Assembly: GCF_009914755.1 (NCBI RefSeq) | Contig: NC_060934.1 | Reading direction: 5' to 3' (one strand) | Length of the DNA: 64,000 nucleotides | From: the human T2T-CHM13v2.0 reference genome, Homo sapiens | In this document: positions 39,061 through 39,779 of the stretch, in pieces | Layout: each line of letters opens with the position of its first letter | Numbering within the stretch: position 1 is the stretch's first letter | Position numbers and translations under genes: made by a program | Notes under the pieces: generated by a model | The model's database searches: none | Told to the model about the DNA's origin: nothing | Seen by the model: only the letters and a program-made list of their open reading frames with translations

Positions 39061-39565
39061 GAGGCCAGGGCAGGCCGACCATTTGAGGTCAGGAGTTTGA
39101 GGCCAGCCTGGCCAACATGGCGAAACCCCGTCTCTACTAAAAATACTAAAATTAGCCGTGCATGGTGGTGGGCGCCTGTAATCCCAGCTACTCAGGAGAC
39201 TGAGGCACGAGAATCGCTTGAGCTCGCAAGGTGGAGGTTGCAGTAAACCGAGATCGCGCCATTGCACTCCAACTTGGGTGACAGAGTGAGACTCCGTCTC
39301 AAAAAAAAAAAAAAAAAAAAGAAAAATTCTGCAAGTGATTCCCATTACCCTTGGGATAAGTTCTCGCATCCCTATAGAGGCTCCCCGGGCCTCACCTACT
39401 TCATCAGCCAGAGCCCTATTCAGCATGCTGAGAGGCACAAGAATTGGTTGAACCCAGGAGGTGGAGGTTGCAGTGAGCTGAGATGGCACCACTGTACTCC
39501 AGCCTGGCAACAGAGCGAGACTGTCTCAAAAAAACAAACGAACAAAACAAAAAACAAAAAAACAA
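39061..39565 (+). mobile_element. Chimeric Alu: 5'-truncated Alu + A tail + 108-nt copied flank + Alu right arm + A-rich tail
   Basis: 39321-39428 aligns to 61935-62029; see findings. Confidence 0.88.
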
Positions 39566-39569
39566 CTAC

Positions 39570-39779
39570 ACACAGCGCCCCACTTATGATTCTTCAACTT
39601 TGCGATGGTGCAAAAGCAATAGCATTCAGGACACGCCTCAACTTACAATGAGGTTATATGGGGATAACCCAGTTGAAAATACTGAAAGTTGAATTCCTAC
39701 ATAGGATATTTTCAATGTTCAATGGGTTTATCGGGAGGTGGAGCATCCCGATAAACCCATAAGCAGGGGAGCATCTGTA
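39570..39779. mobile_element. MER47/Tigger5-derived DNA transposon (MITE)
   Basis: actt(a/t)(c/g)gatgg repeats, gggtttatcggga, terminal gagcatctg|ta. Confidence 0.7.

What the first reader, a model, noticed from the sequence alone, without database searches (positions are those of the whole stretch)
39061..39575. Chimeric Alu carrying 3' flank copied from a source Alu 22.6 kb away
Seen: 39321-39428 (gaaaaattctgcaagtgattcccattacccttgggataa...tattcagcatgc) matches 61935-62029, the flank after the Alu at 61619, which has both copies of its TSD AAAATTCTGCAAGTG (61604-61618, 61937-61951) and so is the original. The two Alu bodies share off-consensus bases (atggCgaaa, ga-cTcg, cagt-aAcc). The copy is 5'-truncated, is followed by a separate Alu right arm with A tail, and is bounded by a degenerate TSD (aataacatacaca/aacaactacaca). 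The donor flank lacks a TTTT Pol III terminator over the copied span. Inference: a rare Alu 3' transduction with reverse-transcriptase template switch that landed locally, or an Alu-homology-driven templated insertion.
Basis: partly seen in the sequence, partly recalled or inferred. Interest (0 to 1): 0.75.

Follow-up and report, generated by a model that had tools for sequence, protein, structure and literature searches.

The report
Alu repair patch mimicking a transduction
A 200-350-base piece of one Alu repeat plus its neighbouring DNA sits copied inside another Alu 22.6 kb away, likely pasted there tens of millions of years ago by DNA break repair rather than by jumping through RNA, so it looks like a rare Alu transduction but probably is not one.

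Summary
The duplication is real. Bases 39321-39428 match the 3' flank of the Alu at 61619 (90 of 95 identical, one 13-nt gap), and a genome search finds only these two places. The donor keeps both 15-nt TSD copies, so it is the original. The copy is not a plain offspring, though. Its first Alu body is a mosaic: the 3' part carries the donor's rare pair of changes (about 0.3% of such Alus), while its 5' part is no closer to the donor than other Alus, and it shares a marker (GGCAC, 6% of such Alus) with the second right arm that the donor lacks. The tag ends in a 9-10 of 13 match to the Alu position where that arm resumes. Best reading (0.67): a resident 5'-truncated Alu was broken, invaded the donor through Alu homology, copied its end, tail and flank, and rejoined by microhomeology. 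This works like a repair-mediated duplication (Pace 2009), at longer range. An RNA route is not excluded but has to explain the 22.6-kb proximity and the mosaic. 'atggCg' is a common variant and the outer TSD is weak. No function is seen. Primate orthologues would decide.

The parts
39047..39059 (+). Candidate 5' TSD of the recipient Alu (weak)
   Evidence: Degenerate match to 39561-39572; 89 of 3,000 random 23-mers score as well
39060..39083 (+). 5' end of the recipient Alu (Alu positions 42-65), not donor-like
   Evidence: T at position 65 where the donor has C; 36 of 120 library Alus are as close over 42-100
39084..39223 (+). Zone that holds the entry crossover from recipient to donor (Alu positions 66-205); exact point unresolved, either 66-103 or 191-206; holds the GGCAC marker base at 39208
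   Evidence: Breakpoint model; 39208 C is shared with 39438 and absent from donor 61810
39224..39300 (+). Donor-derived 3' part of the Alu right arm (positions 206-282)
   Evidence: Shares 206T, 229A and 244T with the donor; 0 of 112 library Alus are as close
39301..39320 (+). A20 tail, taken as copied from the donor's tail
   Evidence: Sequence; lies between two donor-derived segments
39321..39428 (+). 108-nt tag: the donor's 3' TSD (39323-39337) plus flank; keeps 13 nt (39394-39406) that the donor likely lost later
   Evidence: 90 of 95 identical; two places genome-wide; a distant paralogue has bases across the gap
39416..39428 (+). Exit microhomeology: end of the tag resembles Alu positions 170-182
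   Evidence: 9 of 13 to the first body and to the Alu majority, 10 of 13 to the donor's version; background for 9 or more is 9.5e-4
39429..39527 (+). Second right arm (Alu positions about 183-282), read as the recipient's own right arm
   Evidence: Carries GGCAC, lacks 206T, 229A and 244T; no TSD of its own seen
39528..39572 (+). Degenerate A-rich tail of the recipient and candidate 3' TSD (39561-39572)
   Evidence: Sequence
61604..61951 (+). Donor Alu: TSD 61604-61618, body 61619-61902, tail, TSD 61937-61951
   Evidence: Identical 15-nt TSDs; the empty site is colinear with a paralogous old repeat at 45066-45227, E 1.1e-6
61935..62029 (+). Donor flank that was copied

Best explanation
A 205-345-bp piece made of the 3' end, A tail, TSD and flank of the Alu at 61619 lies inside a second Alu at 39060, and was likely written in by DNA break repair rather than by retrotransposition. 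Shown: the order recipient 5' part / donor right-arm end / tail / donor flank / recipient-type right arm; the direction of copying; two copies only. Inferred steps: (1) a 5'-truncated GGCAC-type Alu already sat at 39060; (2) it was broken, or a fork stalled in it, near Alu positions 170-205; (3) the left 3' end paired with the same-orientation donor 22.6 kb away through Alu-Alu homology; (4) a DNA polymerase copied through the donor's end, tail and about 90 nt of flank; (5) the new strand let go and annealed back to the recipient's right arm at a 13-nt imperfect match, so that a short stretch of right arm (8-23 nt if the crossover is at 191-205) is present twice. This is synthesis-dependent strand annealing with one homologous and one microhomeologous junction, or its replication-fork version (FoSTeS/MMBIR); the sequence cannot tell these two apart. 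The event is likely old (about 7% non-CpG divergence) and neutral.
For: Mosaic first body: 0 of 112 library Alus are as close as the donor over 206-282, 36 of 120 over 42-100; Bayes factor mosaic over all-donor 19-1,161. GGCAC marker in both arms and not in the donor: 0 of 45 other window Alus, 6,558 of 107,890 genome-wide in the matched class. The 206T+229A pair is sporadic, about 0.3% in both classes (Fisher p 0.28), so it marks the donor itself. Exit junction 9-10 of 13, the size class reported for replicative junctions (7-14 bp at 70-90%; PMC6902434, passages). Same chromosome, same orientation, 22.6 kb; 824 of 1,136 duplicons inserted in repeats had the donor within 5 kb, and those examined bore repair marks (PMC2671141). 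No poly(A) or polyadenylation signal ends the tag; the first AATAAA after the donor is at 63484.
Against: That the recipient was there first is not shown: no primate genome could be read, and the second arm is not more diverged from the Alu majority (2 of 70 non-CpG sites) than the donor (7 of 227). The crossover point is unresolved: positions 101-189 lean towards the donor (log-likelihood +2.5 to +5.1) while position 190 leans away (-4.5 to -5.0); an early crossover needs a fresh change or later conversion at 190. The model is my own, rests on 141 library Alus and on a few sites. 22.6 kb is beyond the 5-kb limit within which Pace et al. trusted a repair origin. 9 of 13 is 69%, just under the 70% cut-off of PMC6902434. 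The outer TSD is weak. The donor has an intact-looking B box and no TTTT for about 630 nt, so a read-through RNA could have existed.
Confidence: 0.67

Rival explanations
1. One retrotransposition event with two template switches: L1 reverse transcriptase started on a GGCAC-type Alu RNA at the target, jumped at the 13-nt match onto the nearby donor (its DNA, or a read-through RNA still held at the locus), copied flank, tail and arm end, then went back to the first RNA and stopped at position 42.
For: Gives the same mosaic, the same orientation, a 5' truncation and one outer TSD. Template switching during target-primed reverse transcription is a proposed route to chimeric insertions (PMC13174262, passages). 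The recipient is not shown to be older than the event. A + strand lncRNA starts at 27140 by the hub's annotation, so + strand transcription toward this region is possible; not tested.
Against: Needs two switches and a template available in cis. I found no paper that shows this for Alu. Local capture by repair is a documented class of hundreds of events.
Confidence: 0.17
2. One reading: reverse transcriptase began on one Alu RNA, switched once to a Pol III read-through RNA of the donor and copied it back to position 42; the local landing is chance.
For: No TTTT over the copied span; microhomeology at the switch point; positions 101-190 are close to the donor on all sites (3 of 121 library Alus as close).
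Against: All-donor body disfavoured 19-1,161-fold; GGCAC in the first body and T at 65 both differ from the donor; chance of landing within 22.6 kb about 1.5e-5; a screen of 118,489 AluY found no confirmed transduction (10.1101/2024.04.29.591526), though it covered AluY only and excluded tags that contain another Alu.
Confidence: 0.07
3. Several separate events: a short DNA duplication of the donor's end and flank, an unrelated truncated Alu beside it, and later gene conversion between the neighbouring arms that spread GGCAC.
For: The outer TSD is weak; conversion between arms 230 nt apart would explain the lone recipient-type site at 190 inside a donor-leaning stretch.
Against: The second arm has no TSD of its own and starts exactly at a 9-10 of 13 match to the tag end (background 9.5e-4), which separate events do not predict.
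Confidence: 0.08
4. The tag is only an old multi-copy repeat, or an assembly artefact, and the match is incidental.
For: The flank lies in an old repeat with a paralogue at 45066-45227 (the family name L2 is recalled, not from a call).
Against: That paralogue is far more distant (26 bits); the tag includes the donor's TSD in register behind an A tail; only two genome places; 5 mismatches and a 13-nt gap exclude a recent assembly duplication.
Confidence: 0.01

Closest known systems
[quoted passage not shown] 2009, PMC2671141; parts 1-2 of 8, passages and supplement searches seen)
   Same: A 50-619-bp piece found at one other place, inserted inside a transposable element, on the same chromosome, with microhomology at a junction and sometimes a 4-21-nt duplication at the break; highest rate 30-42 million years ago.
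   Different: Donor at 22.6 kb, outside their 5-kb class; entry through long Alu-Alu homology, so part of the insert is itself Alu and carries an A tail and the donor's TSD. No chr10 row with coordinates starting 1210-1215 in their Table S1 (the hg18 position is my recalled estimate).
Alu-Alu chimeric join-points and microhomeology in FoSTeS/MMBIR rearrangements (PMC6902434 and PMC4888836, passages seen)
   Same: One chimeric-Alu junction and one 7-14-bp imperfect junction, with a short templated insertion and return to the original template.
   Different: Those are recent, large, disease-linked copy-number events; this is a fixed-looking 0.2-0.35-kb insert with no larger rearrangement seen.
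3' transduction by L1, SVA and (disputed) Alu (10.1101/2021.07.12.451456, passages; 10.1101/2024.04.29.591526, parts 1-2 of 3)
   Same: Element, A tail and source flank in register; source identifiable; no Pol III terminator over the copied span.
   Different: No second poly(A) right after the tag, body only partly from the source, a second Alu arm follows, and the copy is local rather than on another chromosome.
Chimeric retro-insertions made by reverse-transcriptase template switching (PMC13174262, passages seen)
   Same: Same-orientation pieces between one pair of TSDs.
   Different: Those join two RNAs once; here two switches and a neighbouring genomic donor are needed, and the TSD is weak.

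Membership tests
Repair-mediated duplication (Pace 2009) | Insert of at least 50 bp that interrupts a transposable element | tested here: met
   205-345 bp between two parts read as one Alu; that the two parts are one element is inferred from GGCAC and the junction
Repair-mediated duplication (Pace 2009) | Insert found at only one other place in the genome | tested here: met
   (2 places of 2 candidates), with the tool's caveat on common words
Repair-mediated duplication (Pace 2009) | Donor within 5 kb on the same chromosome | tested here: not met
   22.6 kb; it would fall in their group of 58 more distant same-chromosome cases
Repair-mediated duplication (Pace 2009) | Repair marks at the junctions (microhomology, filler, deletion), no terminal poly(A) | tested here: met
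   9-10 of 13 match at the exit, Alu homology at the entry; the insert does not end in poly(A)
Repair-mediated duplication (Pace 2009) | Uninterrupted element at the orthologous site of an outgroup | not testable with these tools
   No primate genome is held (no relatives)
Alu 3' transduction | Tag matches the source's 3' flank in register, same orientation, at least 90% identical | tested here: met
   90 of 95 aligned bases
Alu 3' transduction | Pol III terminator lies downstream of the copied span | tested here: met
   First TTTT at 62585
Alu 3' transduction | Poly(A) directly after the tag, then the TSD | tested here: not met
   An Alu right arm follows the tag
Alu 3' transduction | Whole element body descends from the source | tested here: not met
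   model-based and resting on few sites
Alu 3' transduction | Clear TSD around the whole insertion | tested here: inconclusive
   89 of 3,000 random 23-mers score as well
FoSTeS/MMBIR templated insertion | Microhomeology of at least 5 bp and at least 70% identity at the join-point | tested here: inconclusive
   9 of 13 (69%) or 10 of 13 (77%), by which Alu version is taken as ancestral

The most novel reading that the evidence does not exclude
L1 reverse transcriptase, while inserting one Alu, jumped onto a neighbouring Alu locus in cis (its DNA or a tethered read-through RNA), copied its tail and flank, and jumped back: a local, retrotransposition-coupled Alu 3' transduction, in a genome where a dedicated screen confirmed none.
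Probability: 0.17. Interest if true: 0.62.

Novelty: new variant of a known kind. Interest (0 to 1): 0.33.

Why it matters
Whether Alus transduce their flanks is disputed: one T2T survey listed 386 high-confidence Alu 3' events and a later AluY screen confirmed none. This locus shows how Alu-to-Alu repair could forge the signature (body, A tail, source TSD and flank in register), and it gives three checks that separate the two: a mosaic body, a resumed right arm after the tag, and a nearby donor. It is also a readable fossil of ectopic Alu gene conversion that ran past the end of homology, which normally leaves no trace. As a single old intergenic event with no annotated function it has little biological weight on its own.

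Tried and rejected
A first breakpoint model (second half) over-credited private changes of the copy because of a pseudocount error; it was replaced. 'atggCg' as a private shared change: rejected. 206T+229A as a subfamily mark that could have come from any master Alu: rejected, about 0.3% in both classes. A larger segmental duplication between the two loci: none; the Alu-masked self-comparison of the window gave 5 pairs, of which only this one is above 80% (92%), and the 36-43 kb against 58-64 kb comparison listed no second pair that reaches beyond Alu-like identity. Reverse direction (39 kb as source): rejected by the donor's two TSDs and its empty site being colinear with a paralogue. An inverted 20 of 23 match between the tag end and 39893-39915 as a cause of the differences: 0 of 200 shuffles but 3 of 250 real non-Alu segments reach it; the copy equals the donor at the 3 mismatched sites, so it is left as probable chance. 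Dating the recipient before the event by divergence: inconclusive. How often such events occur could not be surveyed beyond this window, and earlier findings of the scan were not consulted. Eight paper searches turned up no description of this locus in their listings; none searched for the locus by name or coordinate, apart from the supplement look-ups.

Full report
Observation. The window's 39061-39428 has its best non-self match at 61661-62029 (382 columns, 82%, 394 bits; the next Alu scores 293), because the match runs past the Alu tail into flank. The tag 39321-39428 and the donor flank 61935-62029 agree at 90 of 95 aligned bases, with 13 extra bases in the copy. The donor Alu has identical 15-nt TSDs, and its empty site is colinear, across the insertion point, with a distant paralogous repeat at 45066-45227 (E 1.1e-6; I take it for L2 from memory). 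The donor is therefore the original. A search of the whole genome finds the tag at 2 places of 2 candidates, these two (the tool skips very common words). The paralogue has bases across the 13-nt gap, which suggests, on one distant sequence, that the donor lost them after it was copied.

Anatomy. The copy reads: weak TSD, Alu positions 42-282 (first body), A20, tag, Alu positions about 183-282 (second arm), degenerate tail, weak TSD. (a) The first body shares 206T and 229A with the donor; these occur in 1 and 2 of 45 other window Alus. Genome-wide the pair is found 23 times against 6,558 with the majority pair in the GGCAC class (the 23 include this copy), and 280 against 101,332 in the GGCAG class (Fisher p 0.28). 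It is sporadic and marks the donor. (b) The first body and the second arm both carry C at 190 (GGCAC), which the donor lacks and 0 of 45 other window Alus have. GGCAC marks a real class, 6,558 of 107,890 matched Alus. (c) The last 13 nt of the tag match the Alu sequence just before the point where the second arm resumes at 9 of 13 (10 of 13 to the donor's version); 9.5e-4 of all flank-by-Alu position pairs reach 9.

Mosaic test. Over positions 206-282, 0 of 112 library Alus are as close to the first body as the donor is; over 42-100, 36 of 120 are; over 101-190, 3 of 121 on all sites and 29 of 121 on non-CpG sites. The library came from the window and 71 fetched loci; elements chosen for 206T+229A, and those with the Y-type gap or J-type bases, were left out. 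A simple single-breakpoint likelihood model of my own (141 library Alus) gives a breakpoint at or before position 49 a posterior of at most 0.001 in 6 of 6 settings and a Bayes factor of 19-1,161 for mosaic over all-donor in 8 settings. It does not place the crossover: 191-206 gets 0.56-0.67 if the recipient is given the copy's age, 66-103 gets 0.50-0.64 if it is given full Alu age. Against the neat picture, positions 101-189 lean towards the donor (+2.5 to +5.1) while position 190 leans away (-4.5 to -5.0). The donor-derived insert is thus 205 to 345 bp.

Mechanism. Shown: order, direction, copy number, junction match. Inferred: a GGCAC-type, 5'-truncated Alu at 39060 was broken in its right arm; the left end invaded the same-orientation donor 22.6 kb away through Alu homology; synthesis ran through the donor's arm end, tail, TSD and flank; the strand returned to the recipient's right arm at the imperfect 13-nt match. 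This is SDSA with one homologous and one microhomeologous junction, or fork template switching as reviewed in PMC4888836 (passages). Junctions of 7-14 bp at 70-90% identity made up 51 of 159 join-points in one replicative-rearrangement series (PMC6902434, passages). A possible trigger, not tested, is the inverted Alu at 38646-38948 that ends about 110 nt upstream (80% identical); that close inverted Alus are break-prone is recalled. Proximity weighs heavily: a random landing within 22.6 kb on either side has a chance near 1.5e-5.

Rivals. A retrotransposition-coupled double switch gives the same sequence and cannot be excluded, since the recipient is not shown to be older (second arm 2 of 70, donor 7 of 227 non-CpG differences from the majority). 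The outer TSD decides nothing: 89 of 3,000 random 23-mers score as well.

Age and function. Non-CpG divergence between copy and donor over positions 206-282 and the tag is about 11 of 152 (7%, 95% interval 3.7-12.6%; the tag's non-CpG site count is my estimate). With recalled primate rates this points to roughly 20-50 million years, overlapping the 30-42 million-year peak of repair-mediated duplication and AluSx insertion in PMC2671141 (passage). The hub's annotation lists no gene or functional element over the copy, which lies 10.5 kb upstream of TIAL1.

Comparison. It works like the repair-mediated duplications of Pace et al. (PMC2671141; parts 1-2 of 8 read): 824 of 1,136 duplicons inside repeats had the donor within 5 kb, and 3 of 39 proximal cases examined had microhomology plus a short duplication. 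It fails their 5-kb limit and differs in entering through Alu-Alu homology, so I file it as a variant, not a member. Their Table S1 has no chr10 row at the position I estimate from memory. It is not a canonical 3' transduction: no poly(A) follows the tag and the body is not wholly the source's. On Alu transduction the literature I saw is split: 386 high-confidence events in a T2T preprint (10.1101/2021.07.12.451456, passages; supplements not seen) against none confirmed among 118,489 AluY (10.1101/2024.04.29.591526, parts 1-2 of 3). Template switching by L1 reverse transcriptase is a proposed source of chimeras (PMC13174262, passages). PMC10499017 (passages) describes a repeat-mediated insertion pathway in yeast that needs long homology on both sides; it does not fit the short exit junction. 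Names of Alu subfamilies and of other repeats were not tested; no repeat library was on hand.

Verdict. A real, old, single event; most likely a repair-made copy that imitates an Alu 3' transduction (0.67). New variant of a known kind; interest 0.33. The bolder reading, a local transduction coupled to retrotransposition, keeps 0.17.

Noticed in passing
window 39403-39425 and 39893-39915: The end of the tag and a stretch 467 nt downstream form an inverted pair, 20 of 23 complementary; 0 of 200 shuffles and 3 of 250 real non-Alu segments reach this. Probably chance, but it coincides with where the copied flank stops.
   Followed up: partly
window 39722-39760: Perfect 15-bp inverted repeat with a 9-nt loop, inside a stretch (about 39573-39780) that I take from memory for a Tigger/MER-type DNA transposon remnant.
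   Followed up: no
window 38646-38948 and 38154-38468 (- strand): Two minus-strand Alus lie just upstream; the nearer ends about 110 nt from the copy, head to head, 80% identical. A possible source of breaks.
   Followed up: no
window 39121-39300 against 61721-61902: From position 103 on, the copy keeps far more CpGs than the donor (8 donor-only decays against 1 copy-only) yet has more non-CpG changes (7 of 60 over 206-282, donor 7 of 227 overall). Could reflect lower germline methylation or error-prone copying.
   Followed up: partly
window 31102-31427, 45516-46081, 48761-49113: Three copies of a non-Alu dispersed repeat at 73-77% identity; family not named.
   Followed up: no
G000, genome-wide: GGCAC-type Alus number at least 18,953 exact motif matches and split about one third to two thirds for C or T at position 103, which suggests sub-lineages.
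   Followed up: partly
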